Source: Cyanobacteria bacterium M_surface_10_m1_298 (GTDB lineage Bacteria; Cyanobacteriota; Cyanobacteriia; PCC-6307; Cyanobiaceae). Taken from it: a stretch of DNA of 64,000 nucleotides. Of this stretch, positions 44,369-64,000 are shown piece by piece; the stretch's first letter is position 1; every line of letters begins with the position of its first letter. The notes beneath the pieces are model-generated. The model worked only from the letters and a program-made list of their open reading frames with translations. It was not told the origin of the DNA and made no database searches. The DNA lies in NCBI GenBank assembly GCA_016882485.1, contig VGPT01000005.1, forward strand, positions 386-64,385. The letters are read 5' to 3'. The translations under genes and the position numbers were made by a program.

Positions 44369-47300
44369 TTATCCTTCACCACGTAAGCGGCGCAACAGAT
44401 CCTCCTGCGTGAGTTCACTGACGCCCTCCAACCTCTGACTCCAAGCGGGAGTGTGATCTGGGCCTTTTGGTTCAGCCATCGGCAAGGCTGTCGAAGAGGG
44501 AGCGGCAGCAGCGAGATTTTCATCGGAAGCTGCACTGGCAGCCTGCGGAAACAACTGGGACAAGAAATAAACCACTAGCTCTTCAATGGTGGGATGTTCA
44601 AAAACAAGTGACTCCGTCAGCGTGATGCCAAGATTTTTTTCAAGCAGAACCATCAATTCGAGCGCCATCAACGAATCCAAACCCATATTGAAAAGGGGCT
44701 CACCCGAATCAATCTGCTGGGGATCTGCAAGGCCCATCACTTTCGCCAACTGTTGTTTGACGAAGTCCCGCAACAGGCGGGGTCGCTCCGCCGGAGGGGT
44801 CGAGGCCAGCACGGCCCTGTAAGGGGGTACAGCCGAGTCGGCAACAGTTGATGTGGATTCCAGCTGCTCCTGGGCCAGGAGGGACAAGGGGGCTCCTTGA
44901 CGATCCCCTGCCTGGCGGGCCAGGCGTGACCACTCGGCATCCACCACGCCAATGCACCCACCGGCGCCGCGGGCGATCAGATCAGACAGGGCCTCCAGGG
45001 CCTGGGAGGGTTCCAGCAAGCGAATCCCGAACGCTTCAAGCCGTTGACGTTGCCGCGGGTCAAGCGCACCGGCCATGCCAGCACCTGCCCAAGGACCCCA
45101 CTGCAGGCTCATCCAGCCGGGGCGCCCTTGCATGGCCACAAACCCATCGAGGGCACCGTTGGCGGCGTTGTAACCGGCTTGACCCGGTGATCCCAACAAC
45201 GCCGCAACAGAGGAGAAGCACACCAACAGCTCGGGGTCGAGATCACAGCGCCGTAGCGCTGCCTCAACCAGCCGCCATCCGCCCCACTTCGGGGCCATCA
45301 CAGATTTAAGGCGCTGCGGTGTCTGCCACTCCAGCAACCCATCATCGAGGCTGCCAGCGGCATGGAAAATGCCTCGCAGAGAACGCCCCTCAGGCAAGTT
45401 CTGAAGGGTGGCGATCAACTGGTCCACGGCCGCCATGGCGGTAGCTCCATCGGCGGCCAGGTCCAGGGCCAGGGTCGTGGTGACAACCCCCTGAGCCTCC
45501 AGCTCCCGCAACAGGGCCGCTGGCTCCGCGGCGGGGTCGGCGGCGGAGCGGGAAACCAGCAAAAGCGAGCGGGCCCCCTCCGCCACCAGCCAACGCACAA
45601 GCTGTAAACCAATTCCACCGAACGCACCCGTCACCAAATAGGTGCCATCGCCACGGATGCGGAAGCCCGCGGATGGGGGACGCTGGGGTTGGCGAATCAC
45701 CACCTTGCCAACATGCCGCGCCTGGGCCATGCGTCGGAAGGCATCCACGGTGTGCTCAATCTCAAAGGATTCGAGGGGCAAACAGCCGTAGACCCCTGCA
45801 CCCACCTCCTCAAGCAGACGCACCAGCAGCGTGCGGATCAGCCCCGGTTGGGCGGCGGCCACCTCCAGCAGATCAAAGGGGTAGTAACGAACATCGGGGC
45901 GACGCTCGGCAACCTCCGTGCGGCTCCAGATCTCAATCTTGCCCAACTCGACAAATCGACCACCCTGAGCCAGGGCCTCAAAACTGGCATCCACCCAATC
46001 CCCCTTGAGGCTGTTGAGCACCACATCCACGCCACGGCCTCCGGTGGCAGCACGCACCTGATCCACGAACTCCAAACTCCGGGAGTCAAAAACGCCAGCA
46101 CATCCCTGCTCCAACAGAAGAGCCTGCTTGGTGGCGCTGGCCGTGCCGAAGACCGTGGCCCCTCGCTGCAAAGCCACTTGAACGGCGGCCTGGCCAACTC
46201 CGCCGGCGGCGGCATGGATCAACACGGTTTCCCCTGGCTGCAGTTGGGCCAGGTGCTCCAATCCGTAAAGGGCGGTTAGGAATGCGGTGCTCAGGCTGGC
46301 CCCCTGCTCCGCCGTCAGACCCTGAGGCAGAGGAACACACAACTCCGCACGGCAGATCACATGGCTGGCCAGACTTCCCACCGCCAGGGCCGCCAACAGG
46401 CGCTGGCCCATCAGGCTCGGATCCACCCCTTCCCCGACGGCCACCACCCGACCCACACACTCCCCGCCAAAAGGCACCTGAGCGGAGTCACTCAATCCGA
46501 GCTGTCGGCTGTAATTACGCAACAACCCCAGGGCGTTGAGCACATCACGGAAGTTGAGCCCCGTGGCCTCCACCGCCAACTCCAGCTCCCCGGCCGCCGG
46601 CACCTGGCTCGGCAAGGGCAGAGGGGCCAGGCTCTCCAGCAATCCAAACCGGCGGGTGCCATAGCGGAACCGGGCTGGGGTCAAGTTTGCGTAACGCTGC
46701 CGTAGCACCCGCTGTCCATCCCAGGCGAGCGCGGGCTCCTGCTCGGCGAGGTCCACCAGGCGACGCCATGGGACAGCCAATCGATCGCGGCGGGCACCCT
46801 TGGGCAGATGCAGGCTGAACCAGCGGAAGGCGGGGCGTTCCAACGCCACCGTGCGCACCAGGGATGCCAGGGCACCCTGGGCTGGCCCCTGGCCCTCGAT
46901 CACCACACAAACCGAGGATTGGCCCTGCTGGGCCAGCTCGATCAGCTCCACCACGCAGTGCTCGACTGGCGAGTCCTCGAGGCTTGGCCAGTGGACCAGC
47001 GGAGCCCCAGGCCCGGAGGGTGGGGGCTCCGGGGTGGACCCTTCAGGGCGGGGGGTGATCACGTCGGCAGCCGAGATGGTCTCAATCGGCTCCCAGGTCT
47101 GGCGCAGCAACCAGCTGCGATGACCTGGCATGGGCTCGGACGACGGAGCCCCATCCAAGGCCAGGGGAAACAACCAATCGAGGGCCTGCCGGGGCAGGCG
47201 TCGCAATCGGAAGCCACGCACCCAAGCAATCAGACCATCGGCAGCGTGCAATTGGAGATCCGCACACACGAAGGCCGGCTCCGCACTGGGCAGCAACTGG

Positions 47301-63442: not shown

Positions 63443-64000
63443 CCCATCCCCACGCGCCAAACCTGAAGGCCTGCGGCTCGGGCAGCCGCCAGGTCAGCCA
63501 CCGAGCGTGTATCAAACAACCAGGCGGGGTGGCGCATCTGGGGGACCAGCATTGACCAGTCAAGGGAGGCGAAACTAGCCCACTCGGTGAGAATCACCAC
63601 CGCATCGGCTTGTCGCACCGCTTCTTCGGGGGTCTCGGCCGCTCTCCAGACACCCTCGCCCTGAGCCTGGGGAGGCTGCCCCAGATCATCCGTCATCTGC
63701 GCGGAGGACACCTTGGGGTCATAGATCGCCAACTGGGCACCCTCCTCCAACAGGTCCTGACAGATGCGAATGGCCGGAGCCTCACGGGTGTCATTGGTGT
63801 CCGCCTTGAAGGCAAAACCAAACACGGCAATACGCTTGCCAGTCACGGTGCCAAATAAGCGTTGCACCACCAACCGTGCCAGTCGGTGCTGTTGCCAGCC
63901 GTTGAGTTCGACGACGGCCTGCCAATAGGCGGCGACCTCTTGGAGACCGTAGTGGCCACAGAGGTAGACAAGGTTGAGAATGTCTTTCTGGAAACAACTG
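63439..64000 (-). CDS. ugd: UDP-glucose 6-dehydrogenase, C-terminal part (runs off the right edge)
   Basis: FQKDILNLVYLC..YGL.EVA.YW and GFAFKADTNDTREAPAI...IYDPKV. Confidence 0.93.
   Translation of the reverse strand, partial: SCFQKDILNLVYLCGHYGLQEVAAYWQAVVELNGWQQHRLARLVVQRLFGTVTGKRIAVFGFAFKADTNDTREAPAIRICQDLLEEGAQLAIYDPKVSSAQMTDDLGQPPQAQGEGVWRAAETPEEAVRQADAVVILTEWASFASLDWSMLVPQMRHPAWLFDTRSVADLAAARAAGLQVWRVGMG

What the first reader, a model, noticed from the sequence alone, without database searches (positions are those of the whole stretch)
44369..64000. PKS cluster predicted to make a heterocyst-glycolipid-like glycosylated long-chain 1,3-diol in a picocyanobacterium
Seen: a hydrolase-P450-GT28-PKS(KS-AT0-KR-ACP-R)-Rieske-PKS(KS-AT-DH-ER-KR-ACP) run in which most junctions have overlapping stop/start codons, preceded by ugd, epimerase and MFS. 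There is no loading module, acyl-AMP ligase or thioesterase. Established PKS logic: a fully reducing module, then a KR-only module, then reductive release gives a 3-hydroxy aldehyde or 1,3-diol. Heterocyst glycolipids are 1-O-glycosyl long-chain 1,3-diols made by different (Hgl) enzymes. Inference: a fatty acyl primer is extended, released as a 1,3-diol, oxidised by the Rieske and P450 enzymes and glycosylated by GT28 (possibly with uronic acid, given ugd and the epimerase), giving an undescribed envelope glycolipid. Gene order is the reverse of the predicted assembly order.
Basis: partly seen in the sequence, partly recalled or inferred. Interest (0 to 1): 0.8.

Follow-up and report, generated by a model that had tools for sequence, protein, structure and literature searches.

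The report
Picocyanobacterial PKS operon for glycolipid
This is a real, conserved and so far uncharacterised gene cluster of freshwater and marine picocyanobacteria that most likely builds a sugar-bearing, hydroxylated long-chain lipid for the cell envelope; no chemistry yet shows what the product is.

Summary
The gene run is real. On the minus strand lie MFS, membrane serine hydrolase, P450, a GT28-type lipid glycosyltransferase, PKS1 (KS-KR-ACP-R, AT deleted), a Rieske oxygenase and PKS2 (KS-AT-DH-ER-KR-ACP). Four of five inner junctions overlap.

All catalytic motifs are intact. Conserved docking-like termini fit a PKS2 to PKS1 hand-over.

The cluster recurs in Cyanobium, Vulcanococcus and Synechococcus. 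Relatives carry a FAAL+ACP loader, or its decayed remnant, after the P450. A sister form, including marine strain PROS-9-1, has one fused PKS ending in R. The constant set is MFS, GT28, R-terminated PKS and SRPBCC. Rieske, hydrolase+P450 and FAAL+ACP vary.

ugd and the epimerase are not conserved with the cluster, so the uronic-acid idea is unsupported.

The KS domains are modular-PKS type, not Pfa/Hgl type. Any likeness to heterocyst glycolipid would therefore be convergent.

The hydrolase+P450 pair also occurs in capsule and polysaccharide loci of other bacteria. The cluster always abuts a putative outer-membrane-protein/Wzc/Wza set. A lipid anchor for a surface polysaccharide is therefore a serious rival.

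No paper describing the cluster was found. The product is inferred, not shown.

The parts
44369..50848 (-). PKS2: KS-AT-DH-ER-KR-ACP plus a C-terminal docking-like tail. The start is probably the ATG at 50845.
   Evidence: Pfam domains. KS Cys194/His332/His372, AT GHSVG plus HAFH (malonyl type), DH HCIRSQVVFP, ER HAAAGGVG and KR LDD. 59% identical over its full length to the fused KS-AT-DH-ER-KR-ACP-R PKS of Cyanobium ATX 6E8. The tail motif W-x-Q-..-LRGE is conserved in orthologs.
50845..51852 (-). Rieske non-haem iron oxygenase, an accessory gene of the cluster
   Evidence: Pfam Rieske and VanA_C. CPH..x16..CSYH and EH..TTSV..H motifs. Closest solved structures are alpha3-type monooxygenases such as SxtT, NdmA, DdmC and KshA. 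Present in L011, L008, L043, L045 and L002; absent in L004/L006, L044 and L042.
51845..56713 (-). PKS1: KS-(AT deleted)-KR-ACP-thioester reductase, with an N-terminal docking-like segment
   Evidence: Pfam. KS Cys203/His341/His380, KR TGGLGALG plus LDD plus Tyr1035, ACP LGLDSL, R TGASGFLG plus YSQTK. No AT similarity in residues 567-865. None of the listed orthologs of 1441 aa or longer has a Pfam AT hit. KR-ACP-R is 49% identical to that of the fused PKS.
56706..57812 (-). GT28 / MGDG-synthase-like lipid glycosyltransferase
   Evidence: Pfam MGDG_synth and Glyco_tran_28_C, both above cut-off. The best NCBIfam hit is diglucosyl-DAG synthase. The only PDB sequence match is the processive DAG beta-glucosyltransferase 9wde. 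8-nt overlap with the PKS1 start. Directly precedes the PKS in all relatives examined except L002 and L042.
57854..59290 (-). Cytochrome P450, translationally coupled to the hydrolase
   Evidence: Pfam p450, 1.2e-59. FGLGPRKCPG, ETLR and AGHETS motifs. Nearest solved structures are CYP97, CYP4B1, CYP120 and BM3-like. The start ATG shares its A with the hydrolase stop.
59290..60456 (-). Membrane-embedded alpha/beta-hydrolase, lipase-like, in no curated family
   Evidence: No Pfam or NCBIfam hit. Invariant SGFDPRG, GHSSG (Ser241), Asp306/Asp312 and His362 in 25 homologs. AlphaFold2 pLDDT 91.8 with a long helical hydrophobic insert. Every Foldseek hit is a lipase or esterase of the alpha/beta-hydrolase fold, best E 1.7e-3. 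1114 family representatives in the exhaustive search.
60495..61145 (+). SRPBCC (START-like) lipid-binding protein with a signal-peptide-like N-terminus, on the opposite strand
   Evidence: Pfam Polyketide_cyc2 and Polyketide_cyc. A hydrophobic N-terminal segment ending in A-x-A-like sites is conserved in six orthologs. Present in all relatives examined except L002 and L042.
61084..62532 (-). MFS transporter (DHA3-like). The true start is probably internal, near residue 50.
   Evidence: Pfam MFS_1 and TIGR00900. About 12 hydrophobic segments. Sits next to the GT or PKS in L004, L011, L042-L047.
62396..63460 (-). NAD-dependent sugar-nucleotide epimerase (TviC/GalE-like). Membership of the cluster is doubtful.
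   Evidence: Pfam and NCBIfam. Adjacent to the MFS only here and in the closest relative L011.
63439..64000 (-). C-terminal part of UDP-glucose 6-dehydrogenase (the gene runs off the window). Probably belongs to the neighbouring sugar-nucleotide genes.
   Evidence: Pfam UDPG_MGDP_dh_C. The full gene in L001 is followed by UXS-like, GDP-fucose synthase, epimerase and GMD genes. Not found next to the cluster in other relatives.
35556..40388 (+). Conserved neighbour set: Wza-like (35556-36776), Wzz/GNVR Wzc-like (36773-38497) and a 633-aa putative outer-membrane beta-barrel protein (38487-40388)
   Evidence: Pfam. The 633-aa protein has a signal-like N-terminus, a C-terminal Phe and a beta-rich but low-confidence model. 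Its orthologs lie convergent and directly beside the end of the PKS cluster in L011, L008, L045, L006, L046 and L051.

Best explanation
The locus is a conserved picocyanobacterial operon that makes a glycosylated, oxygenated long-chain alkyl lipid for the cell envelope.

Proposed route:
1. A fatty acyl chain primes the KS of PKS2. In relatives it is delivered by a FAAL plus ACP. Here it presumably comes from the fatty-acid-synthase acyl-ACP pool.
2. PKS2 is an FAS/MAS-like fully reducing, malonyl-specific module. It adds one or more saturated C2 units.
3. The chain passes through a docking pair to PKS1. PKS1's ACP must be malonylated in trans, by the PKS2 AT or by FabD.
4. PKS1 adds a last C2 unit. 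Its B-type KR leaves a 3-hydroxyl.
5. The thioester reductase releases the chain as a 3-hydroxy aldehyde or a 1,3-diol.
6. The GT28-type lipid glycosyltransferase adds a hexose.
7. The Rieske oxygenase and the P450 add further oxygen functions.
8. The MFS pump and the secreted SRPBCC protein move the lipid outward.

Shown: gene and domain content, intact active sites, AT deletion, translational coupling, conservation of the gene set, and FAAL/ACP in relatives.

Inferred: starter, number of elongation rounds, alcohol versus aldehyde release, sugar and attachment site, sites of oxidation, role of the hydrolase, and final location.
For: - Domains and motifs.
- PKS2 resembles the iterative MAS architecture and CurL.
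- PKS1 lacks an AT, and so do all its listed orthologs of 1441 aa or longer. Outside the two PKS genes, the assembly holds only one AT homolog (31.6% identical to the PKS2 AT, taken to be FabD) and one KS homolog (81% identical to PROS-9-1 FabF).
- The PKS2 C-terminal tail and PKS1 N-terminal segment are conserved. The tail is absent from the fused PKS.
- The same core recurs in different genomic contexts, with FAAL+ACP in L006 and L044 and a decayed FAAL in L051.
- The relative's FAAL scores as a fatty-acid--AMP ligase.
- The GT is nearest to lipid glycosyltransferases. Sister clusters add a GT21-type (ceramide-glucosyltransferase family) enzyme.
- The SRPBCC signal-like N-terminus is conserved.
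- DevBCA-like ABC exporters lie next to the PKS genes in L002 and L042.
- The cluster's GC content matches the genome, so it is native.
Against: - There are no chemical, genetic or expression data.
- No loader is present in this genome as assembled.
- R domains cannot be assigned to 2- or 4-electron reduction from sequence alone.
- The GT acceptor is unknown.
- The hydrolase+P450 pair is not PKS-specific.
- The Rieske gene is absent from some relatives, and its reading frame is interrupted in L008. The oxidation pattern is therefore not a fixed feature of the product.
- The DH motif has Ser in place of the usual Gly.
Confidence: 0.55

Rival explanations
1. The PKS product is not a free envelope glycolipid. 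It is the lipid anchor or primer of a surface polysaccharide exported by the adjacent Wza/Wzc/outer-membrane-protein set. The hydrolase+P450 pair would then be a general lipid-anchor-processing module.
For: - The outer-membrane-protein/Wzc/Wza flank is constant beside the cluster in seven loci, while the other flank varies.
- Distant homologs of the hydrolase+P450 pair (29% and 39-40% identity) lie in a locus with two KpsC/S-type Capsule_synth genes and a Poly_export gene (L048), and in a GT/methyltransferase locus (L049).
- A P450 at the end of the Campylobacter jejuni kps locus is membrane-associated, and its mutant makes less capsule (PMC3784454).
- Sugar-nucleotide genes flank the cluster here.
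Against: - Constant synteny among related genomes can be inherited rather than functional.
- In this window a low-GC insert separates the two gene sets.
- L002 and L042 have DevBCA-like exporters rather than Wza/Wzc within the region seen.
- Homology of the window P450 to Cj1411c itself was not tested.
- Wzx/Wzy-type or Kps-type polymerisation genes are not part of the conserved set.
Confidence: 0.2
2. The product is a secreted amphiphile, such as a biosurfactant, signal or allelochemical. The MFS pump exports it to the medium rather than into the envelope.
For: - An MFS efflux pump of the DHA3 type is a constant member of the cluster.
- The accessory genes vary between strains, as is typical of specialised metabolites.
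Against: - The secreted SRPBCC lipid carrier, the DevBCA-like exporters in relatives and the outer-membrane/Wza neighbourhood all point to delivery to the outer layers rather than release.
- The predicted long saturated chain would be poorly soluble.
Confidence: 0.12
3. The PKS pair makes a non-glycosylated fatty aldehyde, alcohol or diol, for example a wax or hydrocarbon precursor. The GT28 enzyme acts on ordinary diacylglycerol.
For: - The GT's nearest characterised relatives use diacylglycerol.
- R-terminated fully reducing PKSs can give fatty alcohols. That follows from established knowledge of thioester reductase domains.
Against: - The GT start overlaps the PKS1 gene, and the GT directly precedes the PKS in all relatives examined except L002 and L042. 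Those two lack the GT28 but have other GTs or none.
- From my own knowledge, not tested here: cyanobacteria make their galactolipids with GT2/GT4 enzymes, so a GT28 for that job would be redundant.
Confidence: 0.08

Closest known systems
Heterocyst glycolipid pathway of Anabaena/Nostoc (HglE/F/G/D/C/A/B, HglT, DevBCA-HgdD)
   Same: The predicted product class is the same: a sugar on a long-chain 1,3-diol with extra oxygen functions. Both end in a thioester reductase, carry a dedicated glycosyltransferase, and have dedicated export. DevBCA-like pumps lie beside the PKS in relatives L002 and L042.
   Different: Hgl synthases are PfaA-like. Here both KS domains score far better against the modular type I PKS model (854 and 1313 bits) than against PfaA (282 and 433 bits, cut-off 1010). 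Each PKS has a single ACP. The GT is GT28-type. Export genes are MFS plus SRPBCC. The host is a unicellular picocyanobacterium. Any resemblance would be convergent.
Mycocerosic acid synthase and related FadD-primed mycobacterial lipid PKSs (MAS, Pks2, Pps)
   Same: PKS2 has the MAS architecture KS-AT-DH-ER-KR-ACP, and MAS is its second-best solved match. Relatives have a FAAL plus ACP loader of the FadD32/FadD28 kind. The product is a cell-envelope lipid.
   Different: The AT is malonyl-type (HAFH), not methylmalonyl-type. Release is by a thioester reductase on a second module, not by an acyltransferase. Iteration is not shown here.
Cyanobacterial olefin synthase (Ols) and CurL/CurM-type modules
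   Same: A fatty acid is activated by a FAAL, carried on an ACP, and elongated by a cis-AT-type module whose KR leaves a 3-hydroxyl. CurL is the best solved match of PKS2.
   Different: Ols ends in a sulfotransferase-thioesterase that decarboxylates to a terminal alkene. Here the end is reductive, and a glycosyltransferase follows.
Processive diacylglycerol beta-glucosyltransferase (UgtP/YpfP) and MGDG synthases, GT28
   Same: Best NCBIfam and only PDB sequence match of the GT. Pfam MGDG_synth scores above cut-off. All are lipid-alcohol glycosyltransferases.
   Different: The scores fall far below the equivalog cut-offs (59 against 500 bits). The genomic coupling to a PKS suggests a different acceptor.
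Campylobacter jejuni capsule-locus P450 Cj1411c (CYP172A1)
   Same: A P450 at the edge of a surface-polysaccharide locus, membrane-associated, affecting capsule amount (PMC3784454). Distant homologs of the window's hydrolase+P450 pair sit in a Kps-like locus.
   Different: Sequence homology between the window P450 and Cj1411c, and the presence of a hydrolase partner in C. jejuni, were not tested here.

Membership tests
Modular (cis-AT-type) type I polyketide synthase | KS with Cys-His-His triad | tested here: met
   PKS1 Cys203/His341/His380 and PKS2 Cys194/His332/His372. Pfam ketoacyl-synt E 5e-90 and 3e-95.
Modular (cis-AT-type) type I polyketide synthase | Integrated AT domain (GHSxG plus specificity motif) in every module | tested here: not met
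   PKS2 has GHSVG and HAFH. PKS1 has no AT hit and no AT motif, and residues 567-865 show no AT similarity. PKS1 is therefore an AT-less module inside an otherwise cis-AT system.
Modular (cis-AT-type) type I polyketide synthase | ACP with phosphopantetheine serine, and KR with Rossmann motif and catalytic Tyr | tested here: met
   PP-binding hits in both proteins. LGLDSL and MGLDSL motifs. KR motifs TGGLGALG and TGAFGGIG. LDD motif in both.
Terminal thioester reductase (R) release domain | NAD(P)-binding TGxxGxxG and YxxxK after the last ACP | tested here: met
   NAD_binding_4 E 3e-59 and TIGR01746 275 bits, above the 213 cut-off. TGASGFLG and YSQTK. Two- versus four-electron reduction cannot be told from sequence.
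Heterocyst glycolipid / PfaA-like secondary lipid synthase | PfaA-type KS and tandem ACPs | tested here: not met
   The PfaA model gives 282 and 433 bits, against a cut-off of 1010. The modular PKS model gives 854 and 1313 bits. There is one ACP per protein.
Heterocyst glycolipid / PfaA-like secondary lipid synthase | Product is a 1-O-glycosyl long-chain 1,3-diol or keto-ol | not testable with these tools
   Predicted only from domain logic. Needs lipid analysis.
FAAL-primed lipid PKS | Fatty acyl-AMP ligase and carrier protein encoded with the PKS | tested here: not met
   Absent from the window and from the 2.0-Mb assembly. Present in relatives L006 and L044 and decayed in L051.
trans-AT PKS | Dedicated free-standing AT gene in or near the cluster | tested here: not met
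   The only other AT homolog in the assembly is on contig C37, 31.6% identical to the PKS2 AT and taken to be FabD.
GT28 / MGDG synthase family glycosyltransferase | MGDG_synth N-terminal and GT28 C-terminal domains above Pfam gathering scores | tested here: met
   29.9 bits (cut-off 25) and 23.9 bits (cut-off 22). PDB match to the processive DAG glucosyltransferase at 4e-11.
alpha/beta-hydrolase fold serine hydrolase (lipase-like) | Nucleophile elbow G/A-x-S-x-G, acid and His in order, on an alpha/beta-hydrolase fold | tested here: met
   Ser241 and His362 are invariant, Asp306/Asp312 are the invariant acid candidates, and the GHSSG elbow is conserved. Model pLDDT is 91.8. All Foldseek hits are lipases or esterases, but they are weak: best E 1.7e-3, TM 0.2-0.3, because of the helical insert. 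Catalysis is untested.
Rieske non-haem iron oxygenase | CxH..CxxH cluster ligands and a mononuclear iron His pair | tested here: met
   CPH-x16-CSYH and H-TTSV-H. Pfam Rieske at 1.8e-17. PDB matches to SxtT, NdmA, DdmC and KshA.
Cytochrome P450 | Haem-binding FxxGxRxCxG, ExxR and the I-helix AGxxT | tested here: met
   FGLGPRKCPG, ETLR and AGHETS. Pfam at 1.2e-59.

The most novel reading that the evidence does not exclude
The PKS-made glycolipid is the membrane anchor or primer of a surface polysaccharide exported through the always-adjacent Wza/Wzc/outer-membrane-protein set. The membrane hydrolase+P450 pair would be a previously unrecognised lipid-anchor-processing module. The same module would be shared with Kps-type capsule loci of unrelated bacteria, possibly including the Campylobacter capsule-locus P450.
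Probability: 0.15. Interest if true: 0.8.

Novelty: new variant of a known kind. Interest (0 to 1): 0.6.

Why it matters
Picocyanobacteria are among the most abundant phototrophs in lakes and oceans. They have small genomes with few biosynthetic clusters. A conserved PKS route to an envelope glycolipid would add a new component to their cell surface, which is where grazers, phages and the environment act on them.

If the product is a glycosylated 1,3-diol, it would be a convergent analogue of heterocyst glycolipids. Those lipids are used as sediment biomarkers for nitrogen-fixing filamentous cyanobacteria, so a second source would affect how such records are read.

The cluster family also shows module evolution in action. 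A single fused KS-AT-DH-ER-KR-ACP-R enzyme, an AT-less fused form, and a split two-module form that adds a 3-hydroxyl all occur in close relatives.

The hydrolase+P450 pair belongs to no curated family and is widespread, with 1114 family representatives.

Tried and rejected
- Literature. Nine full-text searches were run. Seven sought a description of the cluster and found none. The library holds only open-access papers, so this is not proof that it is unpublished. The eighth looked up Cj1411c and the ninth long-chain diols.
Distribution across genomes and a profile search of the own genome could not be done. tblastn on the laid genome was used instead.
- The PDB sequence search for the hydrolase gave nothing useful, E above 0.5. 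The fold search gave only weak lipase matches.
- Promoter and terminator scans around both ends of the operon gave nothing above chance.
- The AlphaFold model of the 633-aa neighbour was beta-rich but of low confidence, pLDDT 52.5. It was not sent to a fold search.
- I considered picocyanobacteria as the unknown source of sedimentary long-chain 1,13/1,15-diols and dropped the idea. A 2022 paper assigns those lipids to eustigmatophytes (PMC9169758), and nothing here predicts mid-chain positions.
- I considered that PKS1 is a plain duplicate of PKS2. The KS tree places KS1 in its own clade, apart from the KS2+fused clade. Only the KR-ACP-R part resembles the fused enzyme.
- I considered that PKS2 releases a free acid through the hydrolase for re-loading by the FAAL. 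This is rejected as the main route, because clusters without hydrolase, P450 or FAAL still keep both PKSs and the docking-like termini.

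
Full report
**Observation**

The window is contig C5:386-64385 of a 2.0-Mb, 145-contig assembly. Its housekeeping proteins are 68-91% identical to those of Synechococcus CS-1324, Synechococcus PROS-9-1 and Cyanobium ATX 6E8. 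It is therefore a picocyanobacterium.

Pfam finds all of the following on the minus strand, at the stated coordinates:
- PKS2, 44369-50848: KS-AT-DH-ER-KR-ACP.
- A Rieske protein, 50845-51852.
- PKS1, 51845-56713: KS, KR, ACP and a thioester reductase.
- An MGDG-synthase/GT28 glycosyltransferase, 56706-57812.
- A P450, 57854-59290.
- A 388-aa ORF, 59290-60456.
- An MFS transporter, 61084-62532.
- An epimerase, 62396-63460.
- The end of a UDP-glucose dehydrogenase, from 63439 to the window end.

Beyond the window lie UXS-like, GDP-fucose synthase, another epimerase and GDP-mannose dehydratase genes.

The junctions, read from the sequence, are TGATG (hydrolase/P450), ATGGCTGA (GT/PKS1), ATGGCTGA (PKS1/Rieske), TGATG (Rieske/PKS2) and one 41-nt gap (P450/GT). 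GC content across the cluster (0.60-0.68) matches the genome. The 40-44 kb stretch next to it is 0.47.

1. The PKS1 AT is deleted rather than inactive.
2. A plus-strand SRPBCC gene was missed.
3. The absence of a loader holds for the assembly as it stands, which is incomplete.

**Anatomy of the enzymes**

Both KS domains have the Cys-His-His triad.

PKS2 carries these motifs:
- AT: GHSVG and HAFH, the malonyl signature.
- DH: HCIRSQVVFP, with Ser where Gly is usual, plus a DxxxQ.
- ER: HAAAGGVG.
- KR: the LDD motif.

PKS1 aligns with PKS2 over the KS and linker, up to the first AT motif, and again over KR-ACP. The roughly 300 residues between show no AT similarity. No listed PKS1 ortholog of 1441 aa or longer has a Pfam AT hit. 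The AT-less state is therefore old and presumably functional. The PKS1 KR has LDD (B-type) and the catalytic Tyr. The R domain has TGASGFLG and YSQTK.

Outside these two genes, the assembly holds only one AT homolog (31.6% identical to the PKS2 AT, taken to be FabD) and one KS homolog (81% identical to PROS-9-1 FabF). The PKS1 ACP must therefore be loaded by the PKS2 AT or by FabD.

PKS2 orthologs share a C-terminal tail after the ACP, W-x-Q-..-L-R-G-E. PKS1 orthologs share an N-terminal segment, LS-x-LQLALLAQ..DQR-x-LL, before the KS. The tail is missing from the fused enzyme described below. I read these as a docking pair. That reading, together with the terminal R domain, fixes the order as PKS2 then PKS1, the reverse of the gene order.

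The other proteins:
- The Rieske protein has both cluster and iron ligand motifs. It resembles alpha3-type monooxygenases.
- The P450 has all its motifs. It is nearest to the CYP97, CYP4, CYP120 and BM3 kinds.
- The GT matches only the processive diacylglycerol glucosyltransferase among solved structures, and diglucosyl-DAG synthase in NCBIfam.

**The unnamed ORF**

It has no Pfam or NCBIfam hit. Twenty-five homologs share invariant SGFDPRG, the Ser241 and His362 positions (Ser241 in a conserved GHSSG elbow) and Asp306/Asp312. AlphaFold gives pLDDT 91.8, with an alpha/beta core and a long hydrophobic helical insert. Every Foldseek hit is a lipase or esterase, though weakly so, with best E 1.7e-3.

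An exhaustive profile search finds 1114 family representatives. In two distant cases the gene is again directly followed by a P450 (hydrolase 29% identical, P450 39-40% identical):
- L048 holds two KpsC/S-type Capsule_synth genes, a Poly_export gene and glycosyltransferases.
- L049 holds a GT2, methyltransferases and a GT4.

The pair is thus an autonomous two-gene module of surface-polysaccharide loci, not a PKS-specific tailoring pair. A paper on the Campylobacter jejuni capsule-locus P450 reports membrane association and less capsule in the mutant (PMC3784454). I did not test its homology to the window P450.

**Comparative genomics**

| Locus | Organism or source | Gene order |
|---|---|---|
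| L011 | Cyanobium MAG | epimerase-MFS-(SRPBCC)-hydrolase-P450-GT-PKS1-Rieske-PKS2, as in the window |
| L008 | Synechococcus ELA057 | hydrolase-P450-GT-PKS1-Rieske-PKS2-(SRPBCC) |
| L043/L051 | NCBI MAG, organism name not shown | MFS-GT-PKS1-Rieske-PKS2-(SRPBCC)-hydrolase-P450, then two AMP-binding fragments and a CylC-like fragment |
| L004/L006, L044 | Synechococcus CS-1324; ENA contig | MFS-GT-PKS1-PKS2-(SRPBCC)-hydrolase-P450-FAAL; ACP follows in L006. No Rieske |
| L045 | NCBI MAG, organism name not shown | Lacks hydrolase and P450 |
| L002 | Vulcanococcus limneticus | GT2 and GT4 in place of GT28; a DevBCA-like ABC exporter |
| L042 | ENA contig | An FkbH-like ACP protein and a DevBCA-like exporter |

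The relative's FAAL scores as a fatty-acid--AMP ligase.

The GT search led to a sister form:
- Cyanobium ATX 6E8: MFS-GT28-one fused KS-AT-DH-ER-KR-ACP-R PKS-GT21-(SRPBCC)-hydrolase-P450.
- Marine Synechococcus PROS-9-1: the same layout, but the fused PKS is AT-less.

PKS2 is 59% identical over its full length to the fused enzyme. The PKS1 KR-ACP-R is 49% identical to the fused enzyme's. In a KS tree, KS2 and the fused KS form one clade with 100% support, and KS1 forms a separate clade.

The split form is therefore a derived version that adds a KR-only module, and hence a 3-hydroxyl. The constant set is MFS, a lipid GT, an R-terminated PKS and SRPBCC. Rieske, hydrolase+P450 and FAAL+ACP are accessory. 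ugd and the epimerase accompany the cluster only here and, for the epimerase, in the closest relative. The uronic-acid idea therefore has no support.

**Export and neighbourhood**

The SRPBCC protein and its six orthologs start with a hydrophobic, signal-peptide-like segment. This suggests a periplasmic lipid carrier.

On the other side of the cluster lies a 633-aa protein with a signal-like N-terminus, a C-terminal Phe and a beta-rich but low-confidence model. Its orthologs lie convergent and directly beside the end of the cluster in L011, L008, L045, L006, L046 and L051, followed by Wzc-like and Wza-like genes. The opposite flank differs: dxr/cysS, leuA/folD, or sugar-nucleotide genes. In the window, a low-GC insert (a SwmB-like gene and a SET-domain gene) separates the two sets.

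**Mechanism**

The best-supported route runs as follows.
1. A fatty acyl starter is supplied. Relatives use FAAL+ACP. Here it presumably comes from the acyl-ACP pool. The decayed FAAL in L051 shows that the loader is dispensable.
2. PKS2 elongates it, fully reduced, by one or more C2 units.
3. The chain passes to PKS1, which adds a last C2 unit and keeps a 3-hydroxyl.
4. The chain is released by reduction.
5. The GT28 enzyme adds a sugar.
6. The Rieske enzyme and the P450 add oxygen.
7. MFS and SRPBCC export the lipid.

Only the gene content, motifs, coupling and conservation are shown. Everything about the molecule is inferred. I put 0.55 on 'glycosylated long-chain PKS lipid for the envelope', and less on the exact 1,3-diol glycoside.

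The main rival, at 0.2, is that the lipid anchors or primes a polysaccharide exported by the neighbouring Wza/Wzc set, with the hydrolase+P450 pair processing the anchor.

**Comparison with known systems**

The pathway would work like the heterocyst glycolipid pathway but is not a member of it. The KS domains are of the modular type, not the PfaA type, and each PKS has a single ACP. PKS2 has the MAS architecture, and CurL is its best solved match. The loader logic in relatives is that of FadD-primed mycobacterial lipid PKSs and of cyanobacterial olefin synthase. No paper describing this cluster was found.

It is an AI note, not independent evidence.

**Limits**

I therefore have no genome-wide distribution, no profile search of the own genome and no expression data.

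Noticed in passing
window 35556-40388: The Wza-like, Wzc-like and 633-aa putative outer-membrane beta-barrel genes form a flank that stays beside the PKS cluster in seven loci, while the other flank changes. This points to linkage or a shared mobile unit.
   Followed up: partly
window 40390-44353: A low-GC (0.47) insert carrying a SwmB-like repeat protein (40537-43236) and a SET-domain gene (43946-44353) separates the outer-membrane-protein gene from PKS2. Relatives have no such insert there.
   Followed up: partly
L048:5412-8041; L049:6227-8769: The membrane hydrolase+P450 pair recurs, still coupled, in loci of unnamed metagenomic contigs. One locus holds two KpsC/S-type Capsule_synth genes and a Poly_export gene. 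The other holds a GT2, methyltransferases and a GT4. The hydrolase family has 1114 representatives and no curated model.
   Followed up: partly
window 56706-56713 and 51845-51852: The GT/PKS1 and PKS1/Rieske junctions are the same 9-mer, CATGGCTGA. Both upstream proteins end in LAHG and both downstream proteins start with MA. This may be a footprint of the Rieske gene's insertion or of junction duplication.
   Followed up: no
L051:12579-13989: In a Rieske-bearing relative, the FAAL after the P450 is broken into 83-aa and 225-aa AMP-binding fragments. A 79-aa CylC-like (fatty-acyl halogenase family) fragment follows. The loader is decaying there, and some ancestors may have halogenated the chain.
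   Followed up: no
L042:5046-7334: One variant cluster has no GT28 and no FAAL. It has a 762-aa protein with an ACP domain and an FkbH-like DxDGT phosphatase region, plus a DevBCA-like exporter. This hints at a glycerate-type starter.
   Followed up: no
L047:11125-17649: Marine Synechococcus PROS-9-1 carries the fused form, KS-DH-ER-KR-ACP-R, without an AT domain. The AT has therefore been lost independently in the fused and split forms.
   Followed up: partly
L008:8525-9516: The Rieske gene of Synechococcus ELA057 matches in two pieces in different frames. This is either a frameshift or an assembly error.
   Followed up: no
window 60432-60500: The hydrolase start (60456, minus strand) and the SRPBCC start (60495 if Met22 is used) are divergent and only about 38 nt apart. 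No sigma-70-like promoter was found there.
   Followed up: partly
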